IMG/VR virus record: IMGVR_UViG_3300030019_000576
Direction: 5' to 3' (one strand)
Length of the DNA stretch: 64,000 bases
Origin: a virus
The notes under the pieces were generated by a model. It saw only the letters and a list, made by a program, of their open reading frames with translations. It was not told where the DNA came from and did no database searches. Both the position numbers and the translations under genes were made by a program. Of the stretch, positions 7,398-62,707 are shown piece after piece; within the stretch, counting starts at the first letter, position 1; each line of letters begins with the position of its first letter.

Positions 7398-7399
7398 TT

Positions 7400-12234: not shown

Positions 12235-12250
12235 AGTTGTATAGTTATAA

Positions 12251-35722: not shown

Positions 35723-36069
35723 AAATATTCTATTGTGAAAAAGGTCATCCTAATTTTAAAATGCAAAGCAATAGTTTTCATAATTAATAATTCTGTTTCA
35801 TTTGTATCTAAATGTAATTTTTTACGTAATCTATAAAAAAGATTATGACTAAATACAATTTCACCATATTTTGGATCATCAGTAAATGCAAATTTTCTAA
35901 AGTAAAAAATATTTATATTATTTCGTTTATAATTTATACTATTTCGTTTATAATATATTCTTCCACCTTCTTTATTTGTTTCCACACCATCCACAATGAA
36001 ATATCTCATGATTTCTTTTGGTGTCATTCTACTATATTTGATTCTTTGTATTTTATCTTTTATGTTCAT
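35719..36069 (-). CDS. DKIxxIK-SRLS family protein
   Basis: MNIKDKIQRIKYSRMTPKEI. Confidence 0.45.
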   Translation of the reverse strand: MNIKDKIQRIKYSRMTPKEIMRYFIVDGVETNKEGGRIYYKRNSINYKRNNINIFYFRKFAFTDDPKYGEIVFSHNLFYRLRKKLHLDTNETELLIMKTIALHFKIRMTFFTIEYL

Positions 36070-36392
36070 TCTTGCATTATTTTACAAACTATTTCATAAT
36101 CATACCAATCAAAGTAATCTATGCACATTTTTTTTGCATAGATTAATGCATCTTCTTTTTTATATCCAAATGTTTTAACTAATGGGTATATAACATTAGT
36201 ATAATTAATAGAAACATATTTATTTTTTTTATCTACTTGAAATATAGTTTCACCTTCACTGTTTTCATAAAAATAGTCACTTCTCGGTAAAAAAAGTTTA
36301 TGTGATTTTACATTATCAAATAAATCAATAATCCATTTATCAGAACCTGATAAACGTAATCTTTTAATATGTCTTATTTTATCTTTAATCAT
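36066..36392 (-). CDS. DKIxxIK-SRLS family protein
   Basis: MIKDKIRHIKRLRLSGSDK. Confidence 0.45.
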   Translation of the reverse strand: MIKDKIRHIKRLRLSGSDKWIIDLFDNVKSHKLFLPRSDYFYENSEGETIFQVDKKNKYVSINYTNVIYPLVKTFGYKKEDALIYAKKMCIDYFDWYDYEIVCKIMQE

Positions 36393-37820: not shown

Positions 37821-39674
37821 TTATTTCTTTGCTGTTGGTGTTACTTTTTCTACTTCTTTCTTATCTTGGATATATTTCATTAATTCTATACCAATAAGAC
37901 TATCAACACCAGAACCACCACCTTGACCACCGTTAATCAAGATTTCAGGAATGATTTTTACACCATTTTTACCAATTTCTTCAATAACTTTAAGTTTTCC
38001 AAAATTTTCAGCACCCATTGCAGTTACTTGACCTTTATATGATTCAGCGTTAGCCTTACCAATTGCTTCAATCTTACCAGCTTCGGCTGCACCCATCATT
38101 TGAATTTTAGCAGCATCTGCTTCTGCATTTACTTTAGTAGCCTTTGCGTTAGCAGCAGCTTTAATTTCAACAGATTTAGCTTCACCCTCTGATTGCTTAA
38201 CAGCAGCTTCTGCTTCACGTTGTGAAATTTCTACTTGTTGTTGAGCAGCAACCATTTTAGGTTGAATATCAGCTAATGCTTTCGCAGTTTCCAACATCTT
38301 CTTTTGGTCTTGTGCTTTTGTTTGTGTTTCGAAAGTAATTTCTTCTTCCTGTGCAATCTTACGGTCAGTTAAAGTCTTCATAAGTGATTCAGGTGGAACG
38401 ATATCACCGATAAGCGTATCTACTGCCTTTACATTATATTCATCCAATACCTTTGTAATTTCAACTTTTGCAGCATTTTGACGTTCTTGACGTGTAGACA
38501 AGAAAGCAATAACATCTGAATCTTGTGCTGAATTACGGAAGTAGTTACCGATTGTTGGTTCAAGTACTTGTGATACAAGGTTTTGCATTGAACCGAAACG
38601 TGCAATTACTTTTGGTGCTTCTACTGATGGAATGTGAATAATTTGTGATACATCCAAATTGAATGGGAAACCATCTTTTGAACGTACTGTAATAGTACTC
38701 AAATTCTTATCAAGATTGTGTGATTCACTACGTGCATTTGCCCAATTAAGTACTAAGTTTGTAGTAGGAACGATTTCAATACGTTGTGTATAAGTATTAA
38801 TTGCATATTTTCCTGGATCAAGTGTTTGTAACCACACCCCTTTATTACCTTTTTCTACAATGTTACCATGTTTAAATCCATCACCAGTGACATCTTTACC
38901 ATCACCACCTACATATGAAATAACAACACCAGCGGTACCAATTGGAATTTCTGTCATTGGTCGTTTTTCAATCTGAATTGCCCAAGGACTTAATGTATAA
39001 GAACCCGCTTGAATAACTTGAATTTGAAGACCACGTTGACCACCATTTTCTAAAAACTTATCGAAGTCTTGGAAGTTATTGTGACCACTAATTTCAGAAC
39101 CTGCAATAGAACCTGTTGTAAGTGGTGTACCATCCAATGTAGTAATAATACCAATTGTACCATCTTCAATAGTTGTAATATCTGCTAAGAATACATCAAA
39201 CAATAGTGAATTAATACGATATACACCGTTATTAAGATAACCAACTTGTTTACCACGAGAACCGTTGTTGTTCAAAAATGCACGTGCATTTTGATAATTA
39301 TCAGATTCTACATGTCGTGCTAAAATAAAACCTACTTCAAGAATTTTACCATCTTTAGCTGATACCATACCAATTTTTCCTTTCGGGATGTCAGTAAATG
39401 CAGCTAAATCAATTTTGTACTGCCATACCCAATAACCCCATCCCAAGAAACCTGGTGCTAATGTATCTGCTTGAAACCCTGCTTCACCATTTAAGGCGAT
39501 AATCTTACCATCTGGTAATGAACGTTCTTTACCAAATAGGACGAATTTTTTCGTAACTAATCCAATTCGGTTTTCTGGAATGATAATCATTCCGAATAGT
39601 ACACGCAAAATTTGCTTGTAAAAAATAATTGCTAACAAAGGGAGCAACACCCACCAATAACTTAAAATTTCCAT
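37821..39674 (-). CDS. SPFH/band-7 flotillin-like membrane protein (YqiK-like)
   Basis: N-terminal TM, an SPFH core (IIPENRIGLVTKKF...) and a long Ala/Glu/Lys-rich coiled-coil C-terminus (AEADAAKIQMMGAAEAGKIEAIGKANAESY). Local GC is clearly higher than in the flanks. Confidence 0.7.
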   Translation of the reverse strand: MEILSYWWVLLPLLAIIFYKQILRVLFGMIIIPENRIGLVTKKFVLFGKERSLPDGKIIALNGEAGFQADTLAPGFLGWGYWVWQYKIDLAAFTDIPKGKIGMVSAKDGKILEVGFILARHVESDNYQNARAFLNNNGSRGKQVGYLNNGVYRINSLLFDVFLADITTIEDGTIGIITTLDGTPLTTGSIAGSEISGHNNFQDFDKFLENGGQRGLQIQVIQAGSYTLSPWAIQIEKRPMTEIPIGTAGVVISYVGGDGKDVTGDGFKHGNIVEKGNKGVWLQTLDPGKYAINTYTQRIEIVPTTNLVLNWANARSESHNLDKNLSTITVRSKDGFPFNLDVSQIIHIPSVEAPKVIARFGSMQNLVSQVLEPTIGNYFRNSAQDSDVIAFLSTRQERQNAAKVEITKVLDEYNVKAVDTLIGDIVPPESLMKTLTDRKIAQEEEITFETQTKAQDQKKMLETAKALADIQPKMVAAQQQVEISQREAEAAVKQSEGEAKSVEIKAAANAKATKVNAEADAAKIQMMGAAEAGKIEAIGKANAESYKGQVTAMGAENFGKLKVIEEIGKNGVKIIPEILINGGQGGGSGVDSLIGIELMKYIQDKKEVEKVTPTAKK

Positions 39675-45505: not shown

Positions 45506-46477
45506 TTAATTATTACTAATAAATTTATCAACAATATCTACACATTGTTTAAATCTGTCTTCAAAATCAGTTCCTTTAATGTAAGAAATATTCTTATCTT
45601 TAAAGTTATTGTATAGCAATTCGTGGAATTTTGAACGATTTGGTTCACCCATCCGACTACCATCATCAACAAAAGGTACATCATTCCATAGGAATAAGTA
45701 TAAATCAAATTTATTTGCATCTTCTACTTCCTTAGTGATATTTTCTGGGTGTTTATCAAATAGAAAGTTACTATAACAAACAGTTGTTATTAAATCAGTA
45801 TCAGAAAATAATATTTTATCCCCTAAGTTTTTTTCAATTTCTTCTGCTTGACCTGTAATTATTAGATTTATCATATCTGTATCACATATTTTTGTATCTG
45901 AACACACATCACGACCTACTTCTTTTGCAAACTTAAAGTTATAGTGATTAGATAATAATTCTGTCATAGTTGATTTACCAGTACTTTCAGTACCACATAT
46001 ACATATTTTTTTAGTATAATATGATTTAACTGATTTTGGTATAAAATTCCAATATTTTAATGGTGTTTCCCTTATTGATGTAGATGAAATCGGTGTGTTT
46101 GTTCTTTTTTCATCGTATTGCATATGTTTAATATTCATAAATCCACCAACATAATCACCATATTTTTCACTTGTGAAAATTATATTCACATCAGGAAATA
46201 AATCTGTTAAATATAAAGACCAAACCCTTGATATTTCAATATTTGATACAGATGTATTTTCCATATGTGATGTATCCTTATGAATTATTTTTATATTAGG
46301 TATATCTTTAAATTCTTCTTGTAACCATTTATATCTAAGTTCGCTTGGAATTTCTTCTTTATCGTGTGAGCATAATAATACATAAAGAAAATCAGAATTT
46401 GATAATCCAAAGTTTATTAAAGAAAGATGTCCATTATGTAAAGGACAAAAACTACCTAATACTAATCCTGTTCTCAT
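45506..46477 (-). CDS. nadR: bifunctional NMN adenylyltransferase / ribosylnicotinamide kinase (NadR type, lacking the HTH domain)
   Basis: GLVLGSFCPLHNGH (HxGH). ISSTSIRETPLKYWNFIPKSVKSYY...ICGTESTGKST aligns with E. coli NadR ISGAQIRENPFRYWEYIPTEVKPFF...ILGGESSGKST. A Walker B DTD is present. Confidence 0.85.
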   Translation of the reverse strand: MRTGLVLGSFCPLHNGHLSLINFGLSNSDFLYVLLCSHDKEEIPSELRYKWLQEEFKDIPNIKIIHKDTSHMENTSVSNIEISRVWSLYLTDLFPDVNIIFTSEKYGDYVGGFMNIKHMQYDEKRTNTPISSTSIRETPLKYWNFIPKSVKSYYTKKICICGTESTGKSTMTELLSNHYNFKFAKEVGRDVCSDTKICDTDMINLIITGQAEEIEKNLGDKILFSDTDLITTVCYSNFLFDKHPENITKEVEDANKFDLYLFLWNDVPFVDDGSRMGEPNRSKFHELLYNNFKDKNISYIKGTDFEDRFKQCVDIVDKFISNN

Positions 46478-46478
46478 T

Positions 46479-47024
46479 TTACGTTGTTTTTAAATGTTTT
46501 TTCCATTCTTTATAACCCGCAATTGATAATATTATTAATAATAAATTATACCCTGCGATGTAATACATATCTTGATGAAGACATAATATAATTAACATTA
46601 CATTATTTATCATAAAAATCCACCAAGATTCAATAACCTTTTTAACTAATAAATATGTTGCAAGTAGTGCGATAATACCACCTATACCATCAAGATATAA
46701 TAAATTATTATTAGTTGTTTTAGTTAATAATGTAAAGATAATACCAATCACCATGCATATTCCTATGCATAGTGCTGATTTAGTATATCCTATTTTTGTA
46801 ACTTCTTTTGTATCAACTTCATTCCATTTTACCCAACCATACGCACATTGACCAACTGAAACAAGTTGTAATACCATCTGTGAATAAAAGTTTACATTAT
46901 AAAAGTAATAGGTTAATAGTACTGCACTAATTAATCCAAATACCCAACAAAGTAGATTTTGTTTAATTGTTAAAAACACACTTACTATTCCAATAATGAC
47001 TGAAATTAATTCAATATTTTTCAT
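46479..47024 (-). CDS. pnuC: nicotinamide riboside transporter
   Basis: CAYGWVKW and C-terminal ESWWIFMINNVM...IAGYNLLLIILSIAGYKEW align with PnuC (NIYGWYAW, ENWLLWVIINV...). Its start overlaps the receptor stop (TAATG). Confidence 0.8.
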   Translation of the reverse strand: MKNIELISVIIGIVSVFLTIKQNLLCWVFGLISAVLLTYYFYNVNFYSQMVLQLVSVGQCAYGWVKWNEVDTKEVTKIGYTKSALCIGICMVIGIIFTLLTKTTNNNLLYLDGIGGIIALLATYLLVKKVIESWWIFMINNVMLIILCLHQDMYYIAGYNLLLIILSIAGYKEWKKHLKTT

Positions 47025-48997
47025 TAAAATTTAACTTTAACTGTTGTATAAAAATTAAGTGGAGCACCTATAAAATAAGCATTTTCCCCATTTGAAACAT
47101 ACCCACCCGTAAAGTATTTAGTGTTAGTTAAATTATTACCTTGAATTGATAAGTTTACATTTTTAGTTAATTGATAACCAATTTTTGCATTGAATAATAC
47201 ATAACCAGGAATTGTTTCAGTATTTGCAGGATTAATAAATGCATCCGATAAATATCGACCAGATACGTTTATAAAGAGCTTACCGTTGTTGTATTCAATA
47301 TTCTGATTAACTATTACATTTGGTGTATAAAGTGCGTGATATGATGTGTTATCACCTTTAATTTCACTATTCATTAATGTTGTATTATTATTTATAGATA
47401 AATTTTTTGTAAGATTACATGAAAAATCAAATTCTGCACCATAACGTGAACTTTTATCTACATCTGTCATTAATGGTAAACTATTTAACCCCATTGCACC
47501 TAATTGTGTAATTTCATTATTAAAGTCCATATAAAACAAATTACTTTGAAGTTTCACAACACTATTTGATAAGTTATAACCAAGTTCATAGTCAATAACA
47601 CTTTCAGGTTTAATTATAAATAAATCAACTAAATTATCATTCCCACCGAACATGTCACTTCTTGTAGGTTCACGGTGTGATTGACCAACCGAAAAATACA
47701 AAGATTCATTATTTGTAATTGTGTATGTCACACCCCCACGTGGATTTAAAAACAACCAATTAATTCGTTTCATTGGATTATCACCTATGTAAGTGAAGTT
47801 AACATTACGTAATTGTAAGTCAGTAAATAAACTAAATTTATTTATATCATAATTTGCTTTGATGTAAAAACTTCCTTCGTTTTTATATCCAGTATTTGTA
47901 TATAAGGAATCAATCTGAACAGAACCAGGGTGTGTCATATTTCCACTGTGTGTTCGATTATATGTATTAAGCTGAAATCCAGTGTTAAATTTTAAATCAT
48001 TATATTTTATAAGATAATTTGATGTGAACCCAACGAAATTAGAATTTAATCCAAAATTAAGCAAGTCAGTTGGTGCAGTAAACATACCCCATTTACCATC
48101 TAAATGATTGTAAAAGAAAGTATTTGTTAGAACATAATTACTTGATTCACTATGAACATATTGTAACTGTACAAAACTTTGATTAAAATCATCATTTTCA
48201 CCTTTAGGGTTATAATTTGTGCGAGGGTCTTTTAATATATCAGATTCTGATACTGCATACCATGCCATTTGATTAATTGATTTACCCGAAAATGCAGTCA
48301 ACTTTAATACATCCTTATTACCATAGTATCCACCCGAAAGAAATGCTGAATAACCACTACCACTTGAATTATATTTATACCCATCACTTGTATATTCTGA
48401 TACACTACCAAATAACGCAAATTTATTAATTAAACCCGTACCAAAATTAACATTAAGTGATTGTGTTCCAAAACTACCCGATGTAAAACTTGCATTAAAA
48501 CCTTTATCTAAACCTGTTTTACTTTCAAAATTAATACTACCACCATATGAAGATGTACCATTTGCTGATGTACCAATACCACGTTGGATTTGCATAGAAT
48601 TAATATTCATTGCGAAATTAGGAAAATTGCTAAAATATACCCCTTGGTCTTCACTTTCATTTAACGGAATACCATTTAATGTCATATTTATACGTGTTTG
48701 GTCAATTCCACGAATTCGAAATGATACATATCCATTAGGTTGACCACCATCAGATTGTGATGTAATTGATGGTGTTTTATCTAAAATATACACCATTTCT
48801 TGACCACTGTATTGCTTATCAATGTCAACACTATTGACAACTTTTTGGGAAATAGGTGTTTTAATATCTGGTCGAATACCTACAACTTCCACGTCATTTA
48901 ACTTTACTACTTTTACAGTATCTTTTGATACTTGCGAATAAGAGGTAAACACATTAAATAATGCGATAACCAACACAAAAAATTTAATTTTCTTCAT
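47024..48997 (-). CDS. TonB-dependent outer-membrane receptor
   Basis: Signal peptide MKKIKFFVLVIALFNVFTSYSQ, an N-terminal plug region, a long beta-barrel with alternating aromatic strands and a C-terminal ...VKVKF (terminal Phe). Confidence 0.7.
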   Translation of the reverse strand: MKKIKFFVLVIALFNVFTSYSQVSKDTVKVVKLNDVEVVGIRPDIKTPISQKVVNSVDIDKQYSGQEMVYILDKTPSITSQSDGGQPNGYVSFRIRGIDQTRINMTLNGIPLNESEDQGVYFSNFPNFAMNINSMQIQRGIGTSANGTSSYGGSINFESKTGLDKGFNASFTSGSFGTQSLNVNFGTGLINKFALFGSVSEYTSDGYKYNSSGSGYSAFLSGGYYGNKDVLKLTAFSGKSINQMAWYAVSESDILKDPRTNYNPKGENDDFNQSFVQLQYVHSESSNYVLTNTFFYNHLDGKWGMFTAPTDLLNFGLNSNFVGFTSNYLIKYNDLKFNTGFQLNTYNRTHSGNMTHPGSVQIDSLYTNTGYKNEGSFYIKANYDINKFSLFTDLQLRNVNFTYIGDNPMKRINWLFLNPRGGVTYTITNNESLYFSVGQSHREPTRSDMFGGNDNLVDLFIIKPESVIDYELGYNLSNSVVKLQSNLFYMDFNNEITQLGAMGLNSLPLMTDVDKSSRYGAEFDFSCNLTKNLSINNNTTLMNSEIKGDNTSYHALYTPNVIVNQNIEYNNGKLFINVSGRYLSDAFINPANTETIPGYVLFNAKIGYQLTKNVNLSIQGNNLTNTKYFTGGYVSNGENAYFIGAPLNFYTTVKVKF

Positions 48998-49587: not shown

Positions 49588-49624
49588 ACACAAAGATAAT
49601 GCAAATATTCGGATTTACCAAATA
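49588..49624 (-). promoter_or_regulatory. conserved phage promoter motif
   Basis: gacacaaagataatgcaaatattcggatttaccaaat. Confidence 0.5.
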
Positions 49625-49657
49625 TTTGCATCATAAATATGTTTTTATTTATTAAAA

Positions 49658-49995: not shown

Positions 49996-50886
49996 TTAAT
50001 ATATTATATTATTTTCACCAAAACCATATCTAAGATATTCACCATCAAATATAAGACTATTTGTTGTATCTTGATTTTTATATGTATTTTTTAAATATAA
50101 TTTAATATGTTCACCTTTGAAGTTTTTTGGGGTATATAAATAATTTCTACAAGTACAGTGTTCGGGGTATTCAAACTGTTTCGAATTAAAGAAACCCTTC
50201 TTCAATTTTAAGATATTAATGTCAATAAAATTATCAGTACAATATTCATTAACTTGTAATAATGAAACAAATCCTGCTGAAAATACATTTAATTCATTTG
50301 CGTTTTCTAAGAAATTAATTACTTTTCTATTAGTATCGACACCACCTTTTACTAAAGTGCATCCAAAATGTAGCAACCCATCTCTTGTATGATTGGATTG
50401 TACTTCACCTATTTCTTCATTTGAAATACTTTTAAACCCTAAAATTCTATCGTTTATTTTATTGTTATAGTGGTGTTTAGATAGTCCAATATTATCTATA
50501 TAATCTACTGTTGAATCAGCAAACATTTGAACTAACTTCAATCCATTTGTATTTAATCCAATATAAGTATTGGGATATTCTTCTTTTGTGAATTTTAATA
50601 CATCTTTAAATCTACTGTAATTTAAAGTTGGTTCACCACCCGTAAATTGTATTTTTCTTAGTTCAACACTGTTACGTTTTATTTCTGCTAAAATTTCTTC
50701 ATATTTTTTAAAATTAAAATGATTAGCTATTTCTTTGAATTCACAAAATAAACAATCAGCATTACATCCTTTAAATCTAACATAAAGATTAATATAGGGT
50801 TCTGTTATATCAGAACCCTCATTACCGAAAAACATACAATACTTATCACGTAATGTAATGTCTTTATCAAATAAGTTTATATTCAT
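49996..50886 (-). CDS. radical SAM enzyme (possible peptide-modifying maturase)
   Basis: GCNADCLFCEF is the CxxxCxxC cluster; FTGGEPTL is the SAM-binding GGE motif. Extra C-terminal cysteines (EYC, HCTC) could be an auxiliary cluster. It lies directly downstream of the Cys-rich precursor-like gene. Confidence 0.6.
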   Translation of the reverse strand: MNINLFDKDITLRDKYCMFFGNEGSDITEPYINLYVRFKGCNADCLFCEFKEIANHFNFKKYEEILAEIKRNSVELRKIQFTGGEPTLNYSRFKDVLKFTKEEYPNTYIGLNTNGLKLVQMFADSTVDYIDNIGLSKHHYNNKINDRILGFKSISNEEIGEVQSNHTRDGLLHFGCTLVKGGVDTNRKVINFLENANELNVFSAGFVSLLQVNEYCTDNFIDINILKLKKGFFNSKQFEYPEHCTCRNYLYTPKNFKGEHIKLYLKNTYKNQDTTNSLIFDGEYLRYGFGENNIIY

Positions 50887-50902
50887 ATTTTTTGTTTAAA
50901 AA

Positions 50903-51274
50903 TTAACAACTCGACCTATTACTACTACCAGAACTACCACATCCATCACTTGTCGTACTTCTGCTTATACTTCTACTTGGTGTACTACCACAACCATCAA
51001 TACGAACTGTTCTACCTGAACTACCACAACCATCACCATATGTTTGTGAAGGTCTTTGTACTTGTGGACTACTCTTACTAAATGATTTAAATCTTTTAAC
51101 TATTTCATTTGGTTCTTCATCATCTAAGAATTCTTCTATTATTTCTTTATCAATTTGACCATCTTCTACTAATTTATTAGTATATGTTTTAAATTTTGCT
51201 TCCCATTCGGTACCATATTTTGAATTAAAAAATTTTTTTAATTCTGATAATAAATTATTTTCCGCTTTTGTCAT
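50903..51274 (-). CDS. precursor-like protein with a triple DGCGS C-terminal tail
   Basis: Helical acidic N-terminal region of about 75 aa, then ...GDGCGSSGRTVRIDGCGSTPSRSISRSTTSDGCGSSGSSNRSSC (four Cys in repeated DGCGS units). Confidence 0.45.
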   Translation of the reverse strand: MTKAENNLLSELKKFFNSKYGTEWEAKFKTYTNKLVEDGQIDKEIIEEFLDDEEPNEIVKRFKSFSKSSPQVQRPSQTYGDGCGSSGRTVRIDGCGSTPSRSISRSTTSDGCGSSGSSNRSSC

Positions 51275-51332: not shown

Positions 51333-52055
51333 TTATTTAAATTTTTCATCAAATATATCAAAATTATCACCTACTGAATTGTTATCGTTAATAATAGCAA
51401 AGACAACATTTTTAAATAAATCAGCGTATCCATTTGTTACTAAGATATTATAAAACAAATTTGAAATTATTTCAGGATTGTTTTTAAATACACCACACCC
51501 CCAAGCACCAATAACAATATTTTCAACATTGTTATTGATTGCAAGTGATAACATCAATTTTATTTTATTTTTTGTTGTATCAATATAATAAGAATTATCA
51601 TAATTACAAATTTCATTAAGATTCATTGCAGCAATAGTAATAACATCAGATACAATTTCGTCCATATAATCATAATTTACATCTTTAAAAAATATCGCAT
51701 CCTTTGTATATAACGCTTGATTTTCAACTAATGGATAGAATATATTACTTATAACATTAAATAGATTAGAACACCTAAAAAGACATTCTTCTTGTGCTTT
51801 TGCACCATTTTCTACACCACCACCAGGTCTGGAAGGTGATGCCATATTAAGAACACAACTTTTACCTAATTTACTAACAATTTCCAATGCTGTTACCGAA
51901 TCAGAATTAACTACTAATATATTATTTTTAATACTTGGTGTAACTGCAATTGTTACTGAATCAAGAAAAGTATGTTTAGTAGTGACTGATTTATTCATGT
52001 CAATACTATAATTTTTAGTATCTTTGAATACATTAATTAATTTATCATTGTTCAT
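51333..52055 (-). CDS. bacterial-type poly(ADP-ribose) glycohydrolase-like macrodomain protein (DUF2263/TIGR02452-like)
   Basis: NMASPSRPGGGVENGAKAQEECLFRCSNL contains the bacterial PARG catalytic signature GGG-X7-QEE. Confidence 0.55.
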   Translation of the reverse strand: MNNDKLINVFKDTKNYSIDMNKSVTTKHTFLDSVTIAVTPSIKNNILVVNSDSVTALEIVSKLGKSCVLNMASPSRPGGGVENGAKAQEECLFRCSNLFNVISNIFYPLVENQALYTKDAIFFKDVNYDYMDEIVSDVITIAAMNLNEICNYDNSYYIDTTKNKIKLMLSLAINNNVENIVIGAWGCGVFKNNPEIISNLFYNILVTNGYADLFKNVVFAIINDNNSVGDNFDIFDEKFK

Positions 52056-52302
52056 ATGTTATGTGTTTACTTTTTAATATTTTTTTTATTTTAAGTTTCC
52101 TTTCAGATATTATATCACTATCGTCATATTCTTCATGACAATAATAAACATAACCATATTCATCTTCCCATAAAGAACGACAATTCATAAAAATTATTTC
52201 ATCACCATAAATATTCATTTTATGAATTAAGTTTAATTGTTGTGCTTGATAAACAGTATCTAAACGTTTTAAACACCTAAAAAAATTTCTTATTTTACTC
52301 AT
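52045..52302 (-). CDS. hypothetical protein
   Basis: ATG ORF with a promoter motif upstream. Confidence 0.4.
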   Translation of the reverse strand: MSKIRNFFRCLKRLDTVYQAQQLNLIHKMNIYGDEIIFMNCRSLWEDEYGYVYYCHEEYDDSDIISERKLKIKKILKSKHITYEQ

Positions 52303-52355: not shown

Positions 52356-52796
52356 TTATTCTGGAATTAAAAAAGGAAGTAATTTTATTTTTTTACATTT
52401 ACCTGTTACACTGTTAAATATAGTGTTGTTTATCATTGATTTATACTGAATATAATATTCTTCTTTGTTTGATTCTTCTTTACAAACATTTTCACGATTA
52501 AAATTCTTATAAATCATAGATTTCACATAACATGCGATGGTTTCATCTGCATGTCTTTTACCGACTTCAATAGTATAATATTCTTTAATTTTTTTATATA
52601 CTTCTTCATTCATAATTAGATAGTTATCTTTTATATCATATCTAAATATTTCTTTATTTTTTGTTTTATAATTTACAAGATAATCACTATCCCAATCTCT
52701 AATTTCTTTTAAAGAAAATAATAGTTTTAGAAAGTAACTTTCTGATTTTGGTATTCTGTCCTTTTTAATTAATAATATTTTATCTTTTATTGTCAT
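52356..52796 (-). CDS. DKIxxIK-SRLS family protein
   Basis: MTIKDKILLIKKDRIPKSES. Confidence 0.45.
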   Translation of the reverse strand: MTIKDKILLIKKDRIPKSESYFLKLLFSLKEIRDWDSDYLVNYKTKNKEIFRYDIKDNYLIMNEEVYKKIKEYYTIEVGKRHADETIACYVKSMIYKNFNRENVCKEESNKEEYYIQYKSMINNTIFNSVTGKCKKIKLLPFLIPE

Positions 52797-53215
52797 AATT
52801 TAAATTTCAATATTCTTTTTATAAAACTGTATTTACTTTTATGTTTTATTTCCTCTTTTAATTTTAAAACTTGGTTTTTTGACATCATTCTACCAATTGT
52901 TATGGGTGATGTTTCTAATTTATCTTTTATTATAGTGAAGTAACCGTTTTTATTTTCATATAATAATTCTTTAAAAAGTTCAATACCAAGTTGTTCATCA
53001 ATATTATACTGCATTGCTCTTCCAATTACTTTATATATTAAAAAAAATGTGTTATGTGTATTATTATATTCAAATATACAAGTATCATCCTTAATAAAGT
53101 ATATGTCATTTTTACACTCTAAAATTTCTATATTATTCAATAAGTTTTCTAAATCGAATATATATGTATTATACCTACTTCTTTTAATAAGTTTTATTTT
53201 ATCTTTTATATCCAT
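52793..53215 (-). CDS. DKIxxIK-SRLS family protein
   Basis: MDIKDKIKLIKRSRYNTY. Confidence 0.45.
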   Translation of the reverse strand: MDIKDKIKLIKRSRYNTYIFDLENLLNNIEILECKNDIYFIKDDTCIFEYNNTHNTFFLIYKVIGRAMQYNIDEQLGIELFKELLYENKNGYFTIIKDKLETSPITIGRMMSKNQVLKLKEEIKHKSKYSFIKRILKFKL

Positions 53216-53520
53216 GAATGAGGTGATTTTCTACATTTAAAAATTTCAATACCGGTTGTATACTTTACTAAGTATTTTTTTATAGTTGATTCAACATCTA
53301 TCCACTTTAAATTAAATTCTATTTCAAGTTTATCCCATACTTCACGTCTAATGAAAATAGTTTTATACATATAATCGGTTTCTAATATTATAGAATCATT
53401 ACAAGTATAATACCATGAAGTACCTTGCTGTACTAAGTTTTCGAATATCCCCTTTAAATAATATTCTTCGGGTGACATTCTACTAAGTTTTATTTGTTTT
53501 ATTTTATCTAACACTTCCAT
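53206..53520 (-). CDS. DKIxxIK-SRLS family protein
   Basis: MEVLDKIKQIKLSRMSPEEY. Confidence 0.45.
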   Translation of the reverse strand: MEVLDKIKQIKLSRMSPEEYYLKGIFENLVQQGTSWYYTCNDSIILETDYMYKTIFIRREVWDKLEIEFNLKWIDVESTIKKYLVKYTTGIEIFKCRKSPHSWI

Positions 53521-53860
53521 CTTCTATTTGTTTATTTATTAAATAAAAATCTTCATATGGTCTTAATTCACAATCTTCCCAACCTAAATTATTTTTTAAT
53601 AACTTTCTAAGAAGTAAGATTACTTCATGGTCATTATATCCAAATTTATTAATTAAATTAAACCAAATTTTATCTTCTACATATATAAGATTAGTAAATT
53701 TCTTTTTAAGAAATGCAATATTTTTCATATACCTATATATTTCAGAAGTTGCATCCCATTGTTCAACATAGACGTATTCTAACCCATTTATTATAGTTAA
53801 TAAATATTTTTCAACTTCACTTAGACGTGAATACTTTATTCGTTTTATTTTATCTATCAT
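53504..53860 (-). CDS. DKIxxIK-SRLS family protein
   Basis: MIDKIKRIKYSRLSEVEK. Confidence 0.45.
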   Translation of the reverse strand: MIDKIKRIKYSRLSEVEKYLLTIINGLEYVYVEQWDATSEIYRYMKNIAFLKKKFTNLIYVEDKIWFNLINKFGYNDHEVILLLRKLLKNNLGWEDCELRPYEDFYLINKQIEDGSVR

Positions 53861-53862
53861 AT

Positions 53863-54198
53863 TTAATAATTTGAAGATCCATACACTTCTTTAATTTTAA
53901 GACCTGTGTACAGTGTGACTATATTTTTAACAATTGGATGTATATCATCCCATTCTAAATTATATTTATATTTTAAACCACTTAAAATATTTTTACCAAT
54001 GTATAAATACATCCAACAATTACAGAAAGAAAAATATTCCACATCTTGATCATATCTATCTTTTTTTGTCATAGATTTGAAAAATATCTGATCACTTTGT
54101 TTATGATATACAGAATATGAATCATCTAAAAAACTTATTATATACTTTTCAGCTGGACTTAACCTTTCTAATTTTATTTTTCTTATTTTATCTATCAT
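53863..54198 (-). CDS. DKIxxIK-SRLS family protein (start moved to ATG 54198; track start 54216 is a TTG)
   Basis: MIDKIRKIKLERLSPAEK; a promoter motif overlaps the TTG extension. Confidence 0.45.
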   Translation of the reverse strand: MIDKIRKIKLERLSPAEKYIISFLDDSYSVYHKQSDQIFFKSMTKKDRYDQDVEYFSFCNCWMYLYIGKNILSGLKYKYNLEWDDIHPIVKNIVTLYTGLKIKEVYGSSNY

Positions 54199-54210
54199 AA
54201 AAATATATTT

Positions 54211-54240
54211 ATACAAAGATACAACATTTTTTCATTATAT
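54211..54240 (-). promoter_or_regulatory. conserved phage promoter motif
   Basis: atacaaagatacaacattttttcattatat. Confidence 0.4.
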
Positions 54241-57104: not shown

Positions 57105-57785
57105 TTAATCCATTCCAATGATTTTATCAATTGCACCGTATTCTTTAGCTTCAACCGAAGTCATCCAATAATCACGTTCACAATCTGCTGAAACTTTTTC
57201 AAGTGGTTGACCAGTCCTGGTTGAAATAATTTCATATAATTCATTCTTTAAAAGTTGAATTTGTTTGTATGTTATTTCAATTTCAGTTGCTTGACCTTGA
57301 ACACCCCCAAGTGGTTGATGTTGCATTAACCGTGAATGTTTTAAACAAGACCGATTTTTTCCCGATATAGATAGAATGTATGCCATACTTGCAGCAATAC
57401 CTGTTACTATCGTATTTACATCCGGTTTAATAAATTCCATCGTATCAAGAATACTATATCCAGCGTAAATTCCACCACCACCACTATTAATATATAAATT
57501 AATATCAGTTTTATCTGTTGAATTCATATAAAGTAATTGTCCTGTAATAATGTTAGATACATCATCATTGATAGCTGTTCCTAAATAGATAATTCGATCC
57601 ATCATCAAACGACTAAATACATCCATTGAAGCAACGTTTAACTGTCGTTCTTCAATGATAGTTGGATTAATATAACTGCTACTAAGTGTATTAGTAAATT
57701 TGCGATAACTATCTAAAGTTGTAGAACTTATACCTTGTGATTTTAAAAATAAGTTCACATCTTTTTGAAATTTTTGTTCGTTCAT
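57105..57785 (-). CDS. clpP: ATP-dependent Clp protease proteolytic subunit, with an N-terminal extension of about 45 aa
   Basis: GIAASMAY (catalytic Ser), LMQHQPLGG (His) and ERDYWMT (Asp) are intact; YINSGGGGIYAG is the INSPGG loop. Confidence 0.75.
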   Translation of the reverse strand: MNEQKFQKDVNLFLKSQGISSTTLDSYRKFTNTLSSSYINPTIIEERQLNVASMDVFSRLMMDRIIYLGTAINDDVSNIITGQLLYMNSTDKTDINLYINSGGGGIYAGYSILDTMEFIKPDVNTIVTGIAASMAYILSISGKNRSCLKHSRLMQHQPLGGVQGQATEIEITYKQIQLLKNELYEIISTRTGQPLEKVSADCERDYWMTSVEAKEYGAIDKIIGMD

Positions 57786-57814
57786 AATTTATTTGTTTTA
57801 AAATTGTTTTTATA

Positions 57815-58879
57815 TTATTTAAAATTGTTAAGTTTTGAAAGTTGATTTAATAATTCTTCTTCTTCATCCGTTATTTGTTTTGGTATTGTTAAATTAACAA
57901 CTACTAATAAATCACCTCTATTACCACGTTGGTCTGCTAATCCCTTACCTTTAAGTTTTTTAACATCATTTGGTTTAGTGAATTTATTTATTACTATTTT
58001 AACATCACCTTCTAACGCTGGTATAATTGCTTCACCACCTAATATTAGCTTAGTATATGGAAGATATAAATTAAATATAAGATTTTGTCCGTCTCTTTGT
58101 AATTGTGTATTATTAATAACATCTATAAATATAATAAGATTCCCATAAATTCCACCATTTCCTGGTCTAATAGGTGAATTACCTTTACCACTTGCTTGAA
58201 ATTTATCACCATGATTAATACCTTTTGGTACGTTCACATTTAATTCTGTTTCTTCCTTTACAACACCAGTACCTTTACATTCATTACATTCATGTGTAAT
58301 AATATATCCATCACCTTTACATTTAGGACAGTCAACAGTTGACATAATTATGGTTGAACCCATTTGTCTTTTCATGTTTACCTTACCCGAACCATTGCAA
58401 TCTGAACAAGTATCGTGTTCCCCACCCCAACCATCACAAGATTTACATTTAACTTCACGATTATATTTAATCTTTTTATCTAACCCACTGATAACATCAG
58501 TTAAATCAATAGAAATTTTTAATTTAATATCATATCCACGTTTTATATTACGATTTGGTTGTGATTGAAATCCACCACCAAATCCACTGAATCCACCGAA
58601 TGCACTACCAAACATATCAGCGAATATATCACCTGAATTAAATCCACCAAACCCTGTTGGACCATCTGGATTACCATAGTTATCATAATTAGATTTTTTA
58701 GCATCATCACCTAAAACAGAATATGCTTCTGAAAGGTCTTTAAATTTTTCTTCGAAATCTTTATGTTCAGGATTCTTATCAGGGTGATATTTTTTTGCTA
58801 AGTTTCGGTATGCTTTTTTAATATCATCTTTTGATGTATTTTTATCTACACCTAAAACTTCATAATAATTTTTTGACAT
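57815..58879 (-). CDS. dnaJ: molecular chaperone DnaJ (type I: J domain, G/F region, four CxxCxGxG repeats, C-terminal domains)
   Basis: YYEVLGV...[13 protein letters not shown] includes the HPD motif. A G/F-rich linker follows, then [32 protein letters not shown]. Confidence 0.8.
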
Positions 58880-61239: not shown

Positions 61240-61770
61240 TTATTTTATTTCTTTTACTTCTAATATATTTATAATTGTTTGATTTACCCCTTTAAATGTA
61301 GTATGCTTTTTTACAGTAGCTATTATTTTAATAATATCACCTACTTCTAATTCTTTTCTTTTATTTTCACCAGTGAAACAGTATACTTCATATGTTTTTG
61401 GATTATAGAAATTAACCCTTCTATTTCCACTAAAATGGGTAGACTTTAAATGAAGTAATTCTACATCTGTCATTTTATTTCTATCCAATATACAATGAAT
61501 TACACCATCTTTTATTTCAACTTTTACAAGTTTATCGAAGAGTTCATTCGTTTGATTTCTTACTACTGTTCCAGTTATAGCACAAGTATATTCAATATAT
61601 GAAATAAACCATATTTTTCTTTCTTTAGCTATGATAGTATTACCTTCCTTATCAACAAAAGTATAAAATACATAAGTGTATTCTTCTTTATTAATAAACT
61701 TAATACCTGTTAATACAAGTTCGTGAAAGTATTGATACTTATCTATTTTACCTATAAAATTATTTTTCAT
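61240..61770 (-). CDS. hypothetical protein
   Basis: Co-oriented ORF. Confidence 0.4.
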   Translation of the reverse strand: MKNNFIGKIDKYQYFHELVLTGIKFINKEEYTYVFYTFVDKEGNTIIAKERKIWFISYIEYTCAITGTVVRNQTNELFDKLVKVEIKDGVIHCILDRNKMTDVELLHLKSTHFSGNRRVNFYNPKTYEVYCFTGENKRKELEVGDIIKIIATVKKHTTFKGVNQTIINILEVKEIK

Positions 61771-62707
61771 ATAAATTATTTTTAATCATTTTTTGTGTAA
61801 CCCAATGTTTAGAATTTGGATTTACATGATTTTTTCTAACCCATTTTACAACAGATTTACCAAAATCTTTATAACTAAAACTTTCTGCAAGTCTAATTAC
61901 ATATCCTTCTTGAAATTCAGGATTAATTGTGAATTTCTTAATAAAATCTAAATCAAATATACCACGATATAAAACTGTTACTGTTTTTAAATCTAATAAT
62001 TTACACCATTCTACGGTATCATCCCAAGACAATGCATAATTTCTATCATTCCATATATTAAATACCATAAAATAAGATGGTAAATTATCATAATGTAATG
62101 AATGTTGTGCGTATAAATTTTCACCACATATTCTCCAATTTTGTGGTATATCATAACGAATATTACCCCAAAGTCCTTTTAACCAATTTCTTGATGGGTG
62201 ATTATTAGAATCTAATGAACGTGCAAAACAGCTATCATTCATAAGTGTTGAATTTTCCCCATCCATTTTTTCAGTTATTACAATTTCCTTACCTATAAAA
62301 TATGATAAATCATATGTAATTTTATCATCAGATGTAGCACCTTCTGACCATTCCACGTGACGTGTTCTCGGATATTTCATTTTATTGTTTTCCATAATAA
62401 CTTCACCCCATTTATCATAACTTAAATCTTCATCAAACCCATCAGGTAGTATTATATTTGTAATACTTGCTTTTATTCTTAATGTTTCACAACTTAAAAT
62501 ACCATTTTCTGCTTCTATGTGGTGTTTTTCACAAAGGGAAACACCATTATTCAAATAATACCCACCATCAGTAAACTGCTTTCTATCAATTATATGGTGA
62601 ACATCAATTGCAATGCACCCACATACAACGCATTTATTAGAATCCCTTTTGAAGGTAGATTCCCTAAATTCATCACGTGTTAATAATACATTACCAATTG
62701 TTTTCAT
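61760..62707 (-). CDS. HNH-like zinc-finger domain fused to an Rnl2-type RNA ligase
   Basis: N-terminal CVVCGC...VHHIIDRK...N...CEKHH (HNH). After that: motif I ITEKMDGEN (KxDG), ICGENLYAQHS (motif III), EGYVIR (motif IV), KWVRKNH (motif V, lysines). Confidence 0.55.
   Translation of the reverse strand: MKTIGNVLLTRDEFRESTFKRDSNKCVVCGCIAIDVHHIIDRKQFTDGGYYLNNGVSLCEKHHIEAENGILSCETLRIKASITNIILPDGFDEDLSYDKWGEVIMENNKMKYPRTRHVEWSEGATSDDKITYDLSYFIGKEIVITEKMDGENSTLMNDSCFARSLDSNNHPSRNWLKGLWGNIRYDIPQNWRICGENLYAQHSLHYDNLPSYFMVFNIWNDRNYALSWDDTVEWCKLLDLKTVTVLYRGIFDLDFIKKFTINPEFQEGYVIRLAESFSYKDFGKSVVKWVRKNHVNPNSKHWVTQKMIKNNLYEK

What the first reader, a model, noticed from the sequence alone, without database searches (positions are those of the whole stretch)
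51333..52055. Bacterial-type PARG macrodomain (GGG-X7-QEE signature) encoded by the phage
The segment NMASPSRPGGGVENGAKAQEE reproduces the catalytic signature GGG-X6-8-QEE of bacterial poly(ADP-ribose) glycohydrolases (DUF2263/TIGR02452). An ADP-ribose-removing enzyme in a phage points to a counter to ADP-ribosylating immunity, such as DarT-type DNA or RNA ADP-ribosyltransferases or toxin ARTs. Alongside the NAD+ salvage operon, the LOG/NDT-like proteins and the CoA genes, the phage appears to carry a broad NAD/ADP-ribose toolkit.
Basis: partly seen in the sequence, partly recalled or inferred. Interest (0 to 1): 0.75.

Follow-up and report, generated by a model that had tools for sequence, protein, structure and literature searches.

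The report
Huge-phage bacterial-type PARG enzyme
A giant bacteriophage carries an intact enzyme of the bacterial "PARG" type, which cuts ADP-ribose off other molecules; it is probably used to undo chemical tagging by the host, but enzymes of this family were already known in large phages, so it is a solid but not surprising find.

Summary
Window 51333..52055 (minus strand) encodes a 240-aa protein that passes the curated cut-offs of TIGR02452 (135 bits vs 50) and PF10021 (75 vs 23.5). It has the GGG-X7-QEE catalytic loop and the GAWGCGVF diphosphate loop. Its confident AlphaFold model (pLDDT 88.5) superposes best on the T. curvata and D. radiodurans PARG crystal structures (TM 0.84 and 0.75).

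The window is a fragment of a huge phage related to the 634-735 kb megaphages. The gene belongs to a virus-only clade found on contigs up to 675 kb. The clade is 40-63% identical to the query, against 37% or less for any cellular homolog. It has a ~10-residue deletion and its own C-terminal loop, with Asn where TcPARG has the "ribose-cap" Arg.

It is a stand-alone eraser. I found no ADP-ribosyltransferase in the window and no conserved partner. The NAD-salvage adjacency is not conserved in relatives. RNA-ligase or HD-phosphohydrolase neighbours recur, as in the D. radiodurans PARG operon.

The best reading is that it removes O-glycosidic or phosphate-linked ADP-ribose (PAR, RNA 2'-OH, nucleic-acid ends) laid down by host enzymes. 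bactPARG in Bacillus phage G was reported in 2014, so this is a new member of a known kind.

The parts
51333..52055 (-). Gene for a 240-aa bacterial-type poly(ADP-ribose) glycohydrolase (PARG, TIGR02452/PF10021/DUF2263) of a huge-phage-specific clade
   Evidence: ORF. TIGR02452 135 bits vs cut-off 50. PF10021 75 bits vs 23.5. AF2 model pLDDT 88.5, pTM 0.88. Foldseek top hits are TcPARG 3sih (TMq 0.84) and DrPARG 5zdc (0.75).
51786..51824 (-). Catalytic loop GGGVENGAKAQEE (G78-E90): PARG signature GGG-X7-QEE. E90 aligns with the catalytic Glu of DrPARG (E112) and TcPARG (E115).
   Evidence: HMMER alignments to 5zd* and 3sig. The DrPARG E112A mutant is inactive (PMC6445106). Q88, E89 and E90 are invariant in 43 close homologs and in 139 unique viral and cellular sequences (partly by construction, since one retrieval pattern was AQEECLF).
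51486..51509 (-). Diphosphate-binding loop GAWGCGVF (G183-F190), identical to DrPARG GAWGCGVF
   Evidence: Alignments. Invariant G186-C-G-V-F190 in alignment A1. pLDDT dips here (block 181-190 = 67), as expected for a ligand-free loop.
51360..51395 (-). Clade-specific C-terminal loop IINDNNSVGDNF (I221-F232) at the 'ribose cap' position. N231 aligns with TcPARG Arg268 and DrPARG Thr267.
   Evidence: MAFFT alignment of 139 unique sequences. Transitive mapping through an Actinomadura homolog to 3sig and the DrPARG primer-derived sequence. D224, N226, S227 and N231 are invariant in the clade. There is no Arg or Lys in 221-232.

Best explanation
The gene encodes a catalytically competent, cytoplasmic, single-domain bacterial-type PARG.

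Mechanism, established for the family and inferred here:
- The macrodomain binds one ADP-ribose unit.
- The GAWGCGVF loop clamps and strains the diphosphate.
- The GGG-X7-QEE loop places Glu90 to protonate the leaving 2'-oxygen, so that water attacks C1'' of the distal ribose and free ADP-ribose is released.

The chemistry is therefore cleavage of ribose(1''->2')-O-glycosidic ADP-ribosyl linkages, meaning poly(ADP-ribose) and ADP-ribose on RNA 2'-OH. As shown for other bacterial PARGs, it may also remove ADP-ribose capping 5'-phosphate ends of RNA or DNA.

In the phage it is a stand-alone 'eraser' without a cognate transferase nearby. Its most likely job is to strip ADP-ribose that host (defence or toxin) ADP-ribosyltransferases attach to RNA, nucleic-acid ends or PARylated proteins during infection. 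It may act together with the phage's RNA ligases as part of a nucleic-acid repair capacity. Because Asn231 replaces the TcPARG capping Arg, it may, like DrPARG, tolerate internal (endo) binding.

Shown: family membership, motifs, fold, virus-specific conserved clade, absence of a linked transferase. Inferred: activity, substrate, biological role.
For: - Family and active site.
- Fold: model pLDDT 88.5. Best structural matches are TcPARG (TMq 0.84) and DrPARG (0.75), versus ~0.5 for canonical PARG and MacroD.
- Conservation implying function: mean column identity is 73% over 43 homologs, with 60 invariant columns including all catalytic residues.
- Virus-specific clade: 173 relatives in IMG/VR, and of the 78 best loci 55 lie on contigs >=100 kb and 26 on contigs >=200 kb. 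The clade of 20 unique sequences contains no cellular sequence in the NJ tree. Cellular best hits are <=37% identical. There are 85 50%-identity clusters at E<=1e-30 within a family of 8,143 clusters.
- Substrate chemistry: only PARG-type macrodomains (SCO0909, DRB0099, human PARG) reverse RhsP2 2'-OH RNA ADP-ribosylation, and bacterial PARGs also act on ADPr-5'-phosphate ends and protect cells from the toxin (PMC11833690).
- Repair context: RNA-ligase homologs lie within 4-16 kb of the PARG in the window, L005-8, L028 and LR756502.1. An HD-domain protein is directly downstream in the L011-19/30/34 lineage. This mirrors the D. radiodurans ligase-PARG-HD/Pnk operon.
- No transferase: no ART or PARP domain in any window ORF of >=70 aa.
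Against: - No biochemical data exist for any member of this phage clade.
- Only 64 kb of a genome that is probably several hundred kb is visible, so a phage-encoded ART elsewhere cannot be excluded.
- No anti-phage system that ADP-ribosylates RNA 2'-OH or makes PAR is known in the papers I found. The known defence ARTs modify bases: DarT on DNA and CmdT on mRNA adenine N6.
- The ligase and HD proximity is loose (4-16 kb) and absent in many lineages.
- The ~10-residue deletion and the clade-specific C-terminal loop could change substrate specificity in unknown ways.
- Active-site geometry was inferred from alignment to liganded crystal structures, not measured on the model.
Confidence: 0.55

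Rival explanations
1. One reading: the enzyme removes base-linked ADP-ribose from phage DNA (DarT1/DarT2 products) or from mRNA (CmdT), acting as an orphan DarG-like antitoxin.
For: Phages do carry orphan erasers against DarT: AdfN/NADAR and a chimallivirus DarG2-like macrodomain. The protein is a macrodomain hydrolase with an intact active site.
Against: The known anti-DarT erasers belong to other families. Thymidine-ADPr was hydrolysed robustly by DarG and TARG1 only, and fly Parg was in a tested panel in which only the TARG1 homologues were active. Only NADARs reverse guanosine-ADPr. There is no PADLOC/DarG HMM hit. Structural neighbours are PARGs, not TARG1 or DarG. PARG chemistry targets O-glycosidic ribose-ribose bonds, not N-glycosidic base linkages.
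Confidence: 0.1
2. It is the reversing half of a phage-run ADP-ribosylation cycle. A phage-encoded PARP or ART elsewhere in the genome modifies host or phage targets, and the PARG trims or resets the modification.
For: Phages encode ARTs (T4 Alt, ModA and ModB are discussed in PMC8120803). PARP homologs exist in Aeromonas phage Aeh1 and Cellulophaga phage phi4:1 (PMC4245714). Only a fraction of this huge genome is visible.
Against: No ART or PARP domain appears in the 64-kb window. None was found among the recurrent neighbour clusters that I annotated from the 86 related loci; I did not annotate all neighbours.
Confidence: 0.15
3. It is a metabolic enzyme in the phage's NAD+ economy. It would liberate free ADP-ribose (from PAR, O-acetyl-ADPr or ADPr-1''-phosphate) for recycling alongside NadR/PnuC salvage.
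For: In this phage the NadR-PnuC-TonB-receptor cluster lies 4.9 kb away, with LOG, NDT-like and CoA genes further off. One relative (L005) has a PRPP-synthetase-family gene 7 kb upstream.
Against: The adjacency is not conserved: NadR, PnuC, LOG and NDT homologs were found near the PARG in none of the other lineages. NadR/PnuC salvage starts from nicotinamide riboside and does not use ADP-ribose (established pathway knowledge). No NARP1-type genes were identified in the window.
Confidence: 0.08
4. It destroys an immune signalling nucleotide that contains a ribose-ribose O-glycosidic bond (for example the Thoeris/TIR product 1''-2' gcADPR), acting as an enzymatic anti-signalling factor.
For: The 1''->2' ribose-ribose bond is chemically the PAR linkage (my inference from known structures). 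The clade has a remodelled loop at the adenosine-ribose side of the pocket.
Against: I found no paper that mentions both gcADPR and PARG. A compact cyclic ligand may not fit the extended ADP-ribose pocket. This is purely speculative.
Confidence: 0.04
5. It is a non-catalytic ADP-ribose or PAR binding ('reader') protein, or a decaying gene.
For: Some other viral lineages replace the third Gly of GGG with Lys or Met, so the family tolerates drift.
Against: In the query every catalytic and binding residue is intact and is invariant across its clade. The ORF is full length and identical on 16 contigs.
Confidence: 0.03

Closest known systems
Thermomonospora curvata PARG (PDB 3SIG/3SIH; founding bacterial-type PARG structure)
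   Same: It is the best structural match (TMq 0.84, E 5e-15). It has the same single-domain macrodomain with an N-terminal helical extension, the GGG-X7-QEE catalytic loop and the G-A-W-G-C-G-V-F diphosphate loop.
   Different: Sequence identity is only ~21%. The query has Asn231 where TcPARG has the ribose-cap Arg268. It has a ~10-residue deletion between the catalytic loop and the diphosphate loop. Its origin is viral rather than actinobacterial.
Deinococcus radiodurans PARG DRB0099 (PDB 5ZDA-5ZDG)
   Same: It is the best sequence match among solved structures (1e-14; 1e-24 with the clade profile). The GAWGCGVF loop is identical. It lacks the capping Arg (Thr267 vs query Asn231), which in DrPARG goes with endo-glycohydrolase activity. 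DRB0099 sits next to a ligase and an HD-Pnk, and phage clade members often sit near an RNA ligase or HD protein.
   Different: Identity is ~20-30%. The phage clade has its own INDHNSVG(D/N)N(F/Y) loop with a one-residue insertion. No tight operon exists in the phage.
Streptomyces coelicolor SCO0909 (bacterial-type PARG active on RNA 2'-OH-ADPr)
   Same: Same family (DUF2263). It is the functional precedent for reversing RhsP2-type RNA ADP-ribosylation and ADPr-capped 5'-phosphates, and for protecting cells from an ART toxin (PMC11833690).
   Different: It is a cellular enzyme. Streptomyces homologs are ~27-30% identical to the query. No phage enzyme was tested in that study.
Bacillus phage G gp114 and giant-virus DUF2263 proteins (Pandoravirus, Tupanvirus, Orpheovirus, Marseillevirus)
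   Same: These are virus-encoded bactPARG homologs with a conserved signature, already reported (PMC4245714). They were recovered here by tblastn (phage G, 30% identity) and by fold search (TM 0.77-0.83).
   Different: They are distant (<=31% identity). The query belongs to a separate clade shared with LR756502.1 and IMG/VR contigs up to 675 kb. None has been characterised biochemically, as far as my searches show.
Phage ADP-ribose erasers used as counter-defence: AdfN (NADAR, T4 30.3) and the chimallivirus DarG2-like macrodomain
   Same: Same concept: an orphan hydrolase carried by a phage to undo host ADP-ribosylation.
   Different: They have different folds or subfamilies and different bond chemistry (N-glycosidic base-ADPr on DNA). 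The query is PARG-type, and no defence system producing its expected substrates is yet known.

Membership tests
Bacterial-type PARG (TIGR02452 / PF10021 / DUF2263) | Profile-HMM score above the curated family cut-off over the whole domain | tested here: met
   TIGR02452 scores 135.3 bits against a cut-off of 50, covering residues 10-236 and profile positions 25-265 of 266. PF10021 scores 75.2 bits against 23.5.
Bacterial-type PARG (TIGR02452 / PF10021 / DUF2263) | PARG signature GGG-X6-8-QEE with the catalytic second Glu | tested here: met
   The signature is G78-G79-G80-VENGAKA-Q88-E89-E90. E90 aligns with DrPARG E112 and TcPARG E115.
Bacterial-type PARG (TIGR02452 / PF10021 / DUF2263) | Diphosphate-binding loop (GAWGCGVF type) | tested here: met
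   G183-AWGCGV-F190 is identical to the DrPARG and TcPARG loops in the alignments.
Bacterial-type PARG (TIGR02452 / PF10021 / DUF2263) | Macrodomain fold with N-terminal helical extension, closest to solved bacterial PARGs | tested here: met
   The AF2 model has pLDDT 88.5 and pTM 0.88, with seven central strands and an N-terminal helix 2-16. Foldseek gives 3sih TMq 0.84 and 5zdc 0.75, against ~0.5 for canonical PARGs and MacroD.
Bacterial-type PARG (TIGR02452 / PF10021 / DUF2263) | TcPARG-type 'ribose cap' Arg that restricts the enzyme to exo-glycohydrolase mode | tested here: not met
   TcPARG Arg268 aligns with DrPARG Thr267 and query Asn231. There is no Arg or Lys in residues 221-232. This feature varies within the family (DrPARG also lacks it), so it does not exclude membership.
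Bacterial-type PARG (TIGR02452 / PF10021 / DUF2263) | Hydrolysis of PAR, 2'-O-ADPr or ADPr-phosphate linkages, dependent on the catalytic Glu | not testable with these tools
   This needs enzyme assays. The precedent for the family is in PMC6445106 and PMC11833690.
Canonical (eukaryotic-type) PARG, PF05028 | PF05028 score above the gathering threshold | tested here: not met
   PF05028 scores 22.3 bits against a cut-off of 26.3 and covers only residues 127-196. Canonical PARG structures match at TMq ~0.5.
DarG-type antitoxin macrodomain (anti-DarT) | Match to DarG/defence-system HMMs and a TARG1/ALC1-like macrodomain as nearest structure | tested here: not met
   There is no PADLOC hit at E<=0.01. 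The top 14 structural matches are all PARGs, and no DarG or TARG1 entry appears among the 50 listed matches.
DarG-type antitoxin macrodomain (anti-DarT) | Activity on base-linked (thymidine or guanosine) ADP-ribose | not testable with these tools
   The literature argues against it for PARG-type enzymes. Fly Parg was in a panel in which only the TARG1 homologues cleaved T-ADPr, and only NADAR acts on G-ADPr. Bacterial-type PARGs were not in the T-ADPr panel.
Toxin-antitoxin or operon-linked reversible ADP-ribosylation module (ART + eraser) | Adjacent or co-conserved ADP-ribosyltransferase gene | tested here: not met
   No ART or PARP Pfam domain occurs in any window ORF of >=70 aa. No neighbour cluster is shared by more than 23 of 87 loci, and none of those annotated is an ART.
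Phage NAD+ salvage / reconstitution gene set | Conserved linkage of the PARG with NadR, PnuC or other NAD genes across relatives | tested here: not met
   tblastn with the window's NadR, PnuC, LOG and NDT proteins found nothing in 82 related viral loci plus the LR756502.1 region.

The most novel reading that the evidence does not exclude
The huge-phage PARG clade is a dedicated counter-defence or repair enzyme. It would act against a still undescribed host immune activity that attaches ADP-ribose through O-glycosidic or phosphate linkages: RhsP2- or Tpt1-like ADP-ribosylation of RNA 2'-OH groups or nucleic-acid ends, or bacterial PARylation. It would work with the phage's RNA ligases and HD phosphoesterases as an 'ADPr-decapping plus religation' pathway. 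A more remote possibility is that it degrades ribose-ribose-linked immune signals such as 1''-2' gcADPR. Its remodelled cap loop (Asn231, INDHNSVG motif) and its deletion would be adaptations to that substrate.
Probability: 0.15. Interest if true: 0.75.

Novelty: new member of a known kind. Interest (0 to 1): 0.4.

Why it matters
Bacterial-type PARGs are widespread (more than 8,000 clusters at 50% identity here), but their natural role is still unclear. The only in-vivo role shown so far is protection from an RNA-targeting ADP-ribosyltransferase toxin. A conserved, virus-only PARG clade on the largest known phage genomes, with no transferase partner, argues that these phages routinely meet O-linked ADP-ribosylation in their hosts. 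That makes the clade a probe for finding the host enzymes responsible, possibly a new type of anti-phage defence acting on RNA. It also adds a third hydrolase family (after NADAR and DarG-like macrodomains) to the candidate phage anti-ADP-ribosylation repertoire. The enzymology is directly testable with existing substrates. The finding is not a surprise to the field, however: a phage bactPARG was listed in 2014 and the gene is auto-annotated as TIGR02452.

Tried and rejected
- Megablast of 45-58 kb against 50,697 phage records gave no match, so the phage is not a deposited one.
- PHROGs gave no hit for the PARG. PADLOC gave none either.
- I looked for a conserved partner by clustering all ORFs within +/-6-10 kb in 86 viral or metagenomic loci plus the window. 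Nothing is shared by more than 23 of 87 loci, and the window's flanking ORFs (the 85-aa ORF overlapping the start, the 123-aa Cys-rich protein and the radical SAM) occur only in copies of the same phage. I therefore rejected the idea of a PARG + radical-SAM + peptide module.
- I rejected the idea of a conserved NAD toolkit around the PARG.
- Cellular neighbourhoods (80 GTDB loci) showed no widely shared partner. High-GC antisense ORFs confounded the clustering, so I did not pursue it.
- The sigma-70 promoter scan was not above shuffled expectation (41 found vs 51 +/- 8 expected). The only terminator-like site is at 49634..49596, so the operon structure is unresolved.
- Literature searches for TIGR02452, for jumbo phage + ADP-ribose glycohydrolase, and for gcADPR + PARG returned nothing relevant.
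- I first mapped the ribose-cap position by ungapped extension (to D230) and then corrected it to N231 by transitive alignment through an Actinomadura homolog.
- MAFFT and HMMER disagreed on where the internal gap lies. I therefore checked the deletion by motif-to-motif spacing, which does not depend on the alignment.
- I could not measure pocket geometry, because model coordinates are not exposed to the scripting tool.
Full report
OBSERVATION. Window 51333..52055 holds an ATG-started ORF of 240 codons on the minus strand. The plus-strand frame is full of stops. It is not a chance motif. The whole protein matches NCBIfam TIGR02452 end to end (E 2.7e-39, 135.3 bits against a curated cut-off of 50). 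It also matches Pfam PF10021, 'Microbial-type PARG, catalytic domain' (E 9.2e-21, 75.2 bits against 23.5). The eukaryotic-type PARG model PF05028 is hit only below threshold (22.3 vs 26.3). Among solved structures the only sequence matches are the D. radiodurans PARG (1e-14) and the T. curvata PARG (1.6e-13).

ACTIVE SITE AND FOLD. The residue-by-residue HMMER alignments give two results. Query PGGGVENGAKAQEE lies on DrPARG PGGGFLGGAQAQEE and TcPARG PGGGFLSGAHAQEE. Query GAWGCGVF (183-190) lies on the identical diphosphate-binding loop. The DrPARG paper shows that the second Glu of QEE (E112) is essential, since E112A has no activity (PMC6445106); this residue is query E90.

I aligned 43 homologs and predicted the structure. 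The mean pLDDT is 88.5 and the pTM is 0.88. The model has a seven-stranded central sheet flanked by helices and an N-terminal helix. The lower-confidence stretches fall on the diphosphate loop and the C-terminal loop. Foldseek against the PDB ranks the T. curvata PARG first (TMq 0.84, E 5e-15) and the D. radiodurans PARG next (0.75). Canonical PARGs and MacroD-type macrodomains follow at about 0.5.

I could not measure distances in the model. The statement that GGG/QEE line the pocket rests on alignment to ADP-ribose-bound crystal structures.

WHAT GENOME THIS IS. The window is ~25% G+C, has almost all genes on one strand and has no tRNA. It carries typical huge-phage cargo: IF3, a sigma-70-like factor, a hybrid kinase/response regulator, ClpP, DnaJ, an SPFH protein, two RNA ligases, several radical-SAM enzymes and glycosyltransferases.

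It has no near-identical deposited relative. Its proteins find their best phage matches in the largest phage genomes on record: LR756501/503 (735 kb), LR756502 (642 kb), LR756504 (636 kb) and LR745206 (635 kb). The SPFH protein is 63.5% identical to its LR756502.1 counterpart. From memory, these are the megaphages of Al-Shayeb et al. 2020, predicted to infect Bacteroidota. That would fit the TonB-dependent receptor in the window and the Bacteroidota origin of the nearest cellular PARGs.

DISTRIBUTION OF THE GENE.
- Deposited phage genomes: the protein has relatives in only 20 of 50,697 records. Of these, 19 are genomes of 497-642 kb: LR756502.1 at 46% identity, fifteen Lak megaphages at ~35%, LR756511.1 and Bacillus phage G gp114 (two records). 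The remaining record is a 23-kb fragment.
- Metagenome protein collection: there are 577 word-index hits. The best 120 are 56-63% identical and single-domain.
- Contexts I inspected: a 642,751-bp contig, a 164,996-bp contig and others are plainly phage-like. They hold dense small unknown ORFs, HNH and GIY-YIG homing endonucleases, RNA ligase, DHFR, CoaE and a PRPP-synthetase-family gene, even where a source labels the bin 'Bacilli'.
- IMG/VR: 173 stretches encode a relative. Of the 78 best loci, 55 are on contigs >=100 kb, 26 on contigs >=200 kb and 6 on contigs >=500 kb.
- Species-representative bacterial and archaeal genomes: the family is common (at least 572 loci). The best matches are only 33-37% identical, in Flavobacterium, Prevotella, Fluviicola and other Bacteroidota, followed by actinomycetes and myxobacteria at ~30%.
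- Exhaustive HMMER scan of 1.84 billion cluster representatives: 8,143 family members at E<=1e-3, but only 85 at E<=1e-30.

A VIRUS-SPECIFIC CLADE WITH ITS OWN FEATURES. I extracted the homolog from all 166 loci, which gave 139 unique sequences including the query, aligned them and built a neighbour-joining tree. The query falls in a clade of 20 unique sequences, all from viral or metagenomic contigs. No cellular sequence lies inside the clade (there is no bootstrap support, so treat this as indicative). The clade differs from cellular PARGs in two ways.

First, the spacing between the catalytic EE and the GAWGCGVF loop is shorter. It is 92 residues in the query, with a clade median of 96, against a median of 106 in cellular homologs. 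This reflects a deletion of about 10 residues after the helix that follows the catalytic loop.

Second, the C-terminal loop has a clade-specific conserved motif, INDHNSVG(D/N)N(F/Y), with a one-residue insertion. By transitive alignment through an Actinomadura homolog that is nearly identical to TcPARG, and through the DrPARG sequence read from the published primers, three residues fall in one column: the TcPARG 'ribose cap' Arg268, DrPARG Thr267 and query Asn231. Asn231 is invariant in the clade.

In TcPARG that Arg blocks the adenosine 2'-OH and makes the enzyme exo-only. DrPARG, with Thr, shows endo activity, which T267R/K mutations reduce. The phage enzyme therefore lacks the Arg cap. Whether its own loop leaves the 2'-OH open is unknown.

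Other viral lineages (31-38% identical to the query) look like cellular PARGs in these regions. Twenty of them replace the third Gly of GGG with Lys or Met.

CONTEXT: A STAND-ALONE ERASER. No ORF of >=70 aa in the window has an ADP-ribosyltransferase or PARP domain. I clustered all ORFs around the gene in 86 related loci plus the window. The PARG is the only family present in all 87. The next most frequent family is in 23 loci: a 252-aa protein with metallophosphoesterase-like motifs but no Pfam hit.

The window's immediate neighbours are found only in copies of the same phage. They are an 85-aa ORF overlapping the PARG start by 11 nt, a 123-aa Cys/Gly/Ser-repeat protein 58 nt downstream, and a radical-SAM enzyme.

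Homologs of the window's NadR, PnuC, LOG and NDT-like proteins were found near the PARG in no other lineage, including the +/-20 kb around the LR756502.1 homolog. The 'NAD/ADP-ribose toolkit' is thus real as gene content of this phage, but it is not a conserved functional neighbourhood of the PARG.

What does recur, loosely, is nucleic-acid repair. A PF09414 RNA-ligase homolog lies within 4-16 kb in the window (61760..62707), in L005-L008, in L028 and in LR756502.1. An HD-domain protein lies directly downstream in the L011-L019/L030/L034 lineage. This echoes the D. radiodurans operon DRB0100 (ligase) - DRB0099 (PARG) - DRB0098 (HD-Pnk), described in PMC11833690. I regard this as a hint, not proof.

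HOW IT MOST LIKELY WORKS. The mechanism is established for the family (PMC6445106, PMC8120803, PMC11833690). The macrodomain binds the terminal ADP-ribose, the diphosphate loop positions it, and the catalytic Glu promotes cleavage of the ribose(1''->2')ribose O-glycosidic bond through an oxocarbenium-like intermediate. Free ADP-ribose is released.

Recent work shows that this same bond is made on RNA 2'-OH groups by the toxin RhsP2. Among all hydrolase families tested, only PARG-type enzymes remove it, including two bacterial-type PARGs. Bacterial PARGs also clear ADP-ribose from 5'-phosphate ends, and expressing them protects E. coli from the toxin.

All catalytic elements are intact and conserved in the phage clade, and no transferase is linked. 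The best-supported explanation is therefore that the phage uses the enzyme to erase O-linked or phosphate-linked ADP-ribose placed on RNA, nucleic-acid ends or proteins by host enzymes during infection. This may happen in concert with RNA-end repair; from established knowledge, T4 Pnk and Rnl1 countering the PrrC anticodon nuclease is a comparable case.

I give ~0.9 to 'active bacterial-type PARG-fold hydrolase' and ~0.55 to the combined statement including the erasing, counter-host role. The precise substrate is open.

RIVALS.
DarT products are N-glycosidic base adducts removed by DarG/TARG1-type macrodomains or NADARs. Fly Parg was in a tested panel in which only the TARG1 homologues cleaved thymidine-ADPr, and only NADARs reverse guanosine-ADPr. 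The known phage anti-DarT enzymes are a NADAR and a DarG2-like macrodomain. The query matches no PADLOC model.
- A phage-encoded ART or PARP elsewhere in the unseen genome, with the PARG as its reversing partner, cannot be excluded (0.15).
- A metabolic role in NAD+ recycling is weakened by the lack of conserved linkage (0.08).
- Cleavage of ribose-ribose-linked immune signals such as gcADPR is chemically conceivable but has no support (0.04).
- A non-catalytic reader is very unlikely (0.03).

NOVELTY AND VERDICT. Virus-encoded bactPARGs with an intact signature were listed in 2014 for Bacillus phage G and pandoraviruses (PMC4245714). The fold search also finds annotated DUF2263/TIGR02452 proteins in giant viruses and an 'uncultured marine phage Gp114' at 51% identity. 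JGI already labels close homologs 'TIGR02452 family'. I found no paper characterising any phage PARG-type enzyme or discussing it in huge phages.

The finding is therefore a new member of a known kind. It belongs to a divergent, virus-restricted subfamily whose substrate and biological role are unknown but directly testable. Interest is moderate (0.4). It is a good candidate counter-defence or repair enzyme and a possible handle on undiscovered O-linked ADP-ribosylating host systems, but it is not a surprise to specialists.

Noticed in passing
window 45506..48997 (-): A TonB-dependent outer-membrane receptor (47024..48997; Plug + barrel, Bacteroidota-like signal peptide) abuts PnuC (46479..47024) and a NadR-like NMN adenylyltransferase/ribosylnicotinamide kinase (45506..46477). 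Together these form a phage-borne route from outer-membrane uptake to NAD+. A receptor gene in a phage is unusual.
   Followed up: partly
window 49996..51274 (-) and 20684..21016 (-): A 123-aa protein directly downstream of the PARG ends in three DGCGS(S/T) repeats. It sits 16 nt upstream of a radical-SAM enzyme, which shows weak similarity to the viperin, HxsC and other maturase radical-SAM cores only. A second ORF (20684..21016) ends in ...SDGCGSSMRRSSPC. This may be a peptide precursor/maturase pair. It is found only in copies of this phage.
   Followed up: partly
window 52356..54216 (-), 34318..36392 (-), also 24110..24478 and 11836..12270: A multi-copy family of ~100-145-aa ORFs begins M..(I/L)(K/D)KI..IK.SR(L/M)(S/T). 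It occurs in tandem arrays of five and six copies. It has no Pfam hit, and an array lies immediately upstream of the PARG.
   Followed up: no
window 52045..52302 (-): An 85-aa ORF overlaps the PARG start codon by 11 nt, which suggests translational coupling. It has no family hit in Pfam, NCBIfam or PADLOC, and it is not conserved next to the PARG in other lineages.
   Followed up: partly
window 20..874, 1605..2132, 8110..8973, 37821..39674, 57105..58879: Cellular-type cargo is present: a hybrid histidine-kinase ATPase + receiver (cut by the window start), translation initiation factor IF3, a sigma-70-like factor, a 617-aa SPFH/Band-7 protein (63.5% identical to LR756502.1), and ClpP and DnaJ.
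   Followed up: partly
window 22990..23664 (-), 61760..62707 (-), 5642..6118 (+): There are two PF09414 RNA ligases, the second with an N-terminal HNH-like region, and an AAA_33 kinase-like ORF. RNA-ligase homologs recur within 4-16 kb of the PARG in several related phage lineages.
   Followed up: partly
L011-L019, L030, L034: about 6812..7570: In one huge-phage lineage (PARG 51-53% identical to the query) a 252-aa HD-domain protein lies immediately downstream of the PARG. This recalls the HD-Pnk next to D. radiodurans PARG.
   Followed up: partly
L005 1979..2950: A PRPP-synthetase-family gene (Pribosyltran_N / Pribosyl_synth) lies 7 kb upstream of the PARG on a 642,751-bp phage-like contig. 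From memory, the NARP1 enzyme Adps is a PRPP-synthetase homolog that phosphorylates ADP-ribose, so this could be either Prs or Adps.
   Followed up: no
L036, L046, L048, L051, L059, L061, L063, L074, L075, L081 (GGK); L041, L044, L047, L049, L052, L054-L056, L080, L086 (GGM): Twenty unique viral PARG homologs on ~50-220 kb IMG/VR contigs replace the third Gly of the GGG signature with Lys or Met while keeping QEE. This may be altered loop chemistry.
   Followed up: no
23 viral loci, e.g. L048 5087..5845: A 252-aa ORF with metallophosphoesterase-like motifs (GDTHGD, GNHD, GHLH) but no Pfam hit at 1e-3 is the most frequent PARG neighbour outside the query's clade.
   Followed up: no
window 51381..51383 (residue N225): The query has Asn at position 225, where >=90% of its clade has His. 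That His aligns with DrPARG His262, a residue that hydrogen-bonds the engineered cap Arg in the T267R structure.
   Followed up: no
P0168 (1441 aa), P0173 (780 aa), P0188 (1155 aa): The exhaustive search found long proteins with 3-6 separate PARG-like stretches, that is, tandem multi-PARG architectures of unknown origin.
   Followed up: no
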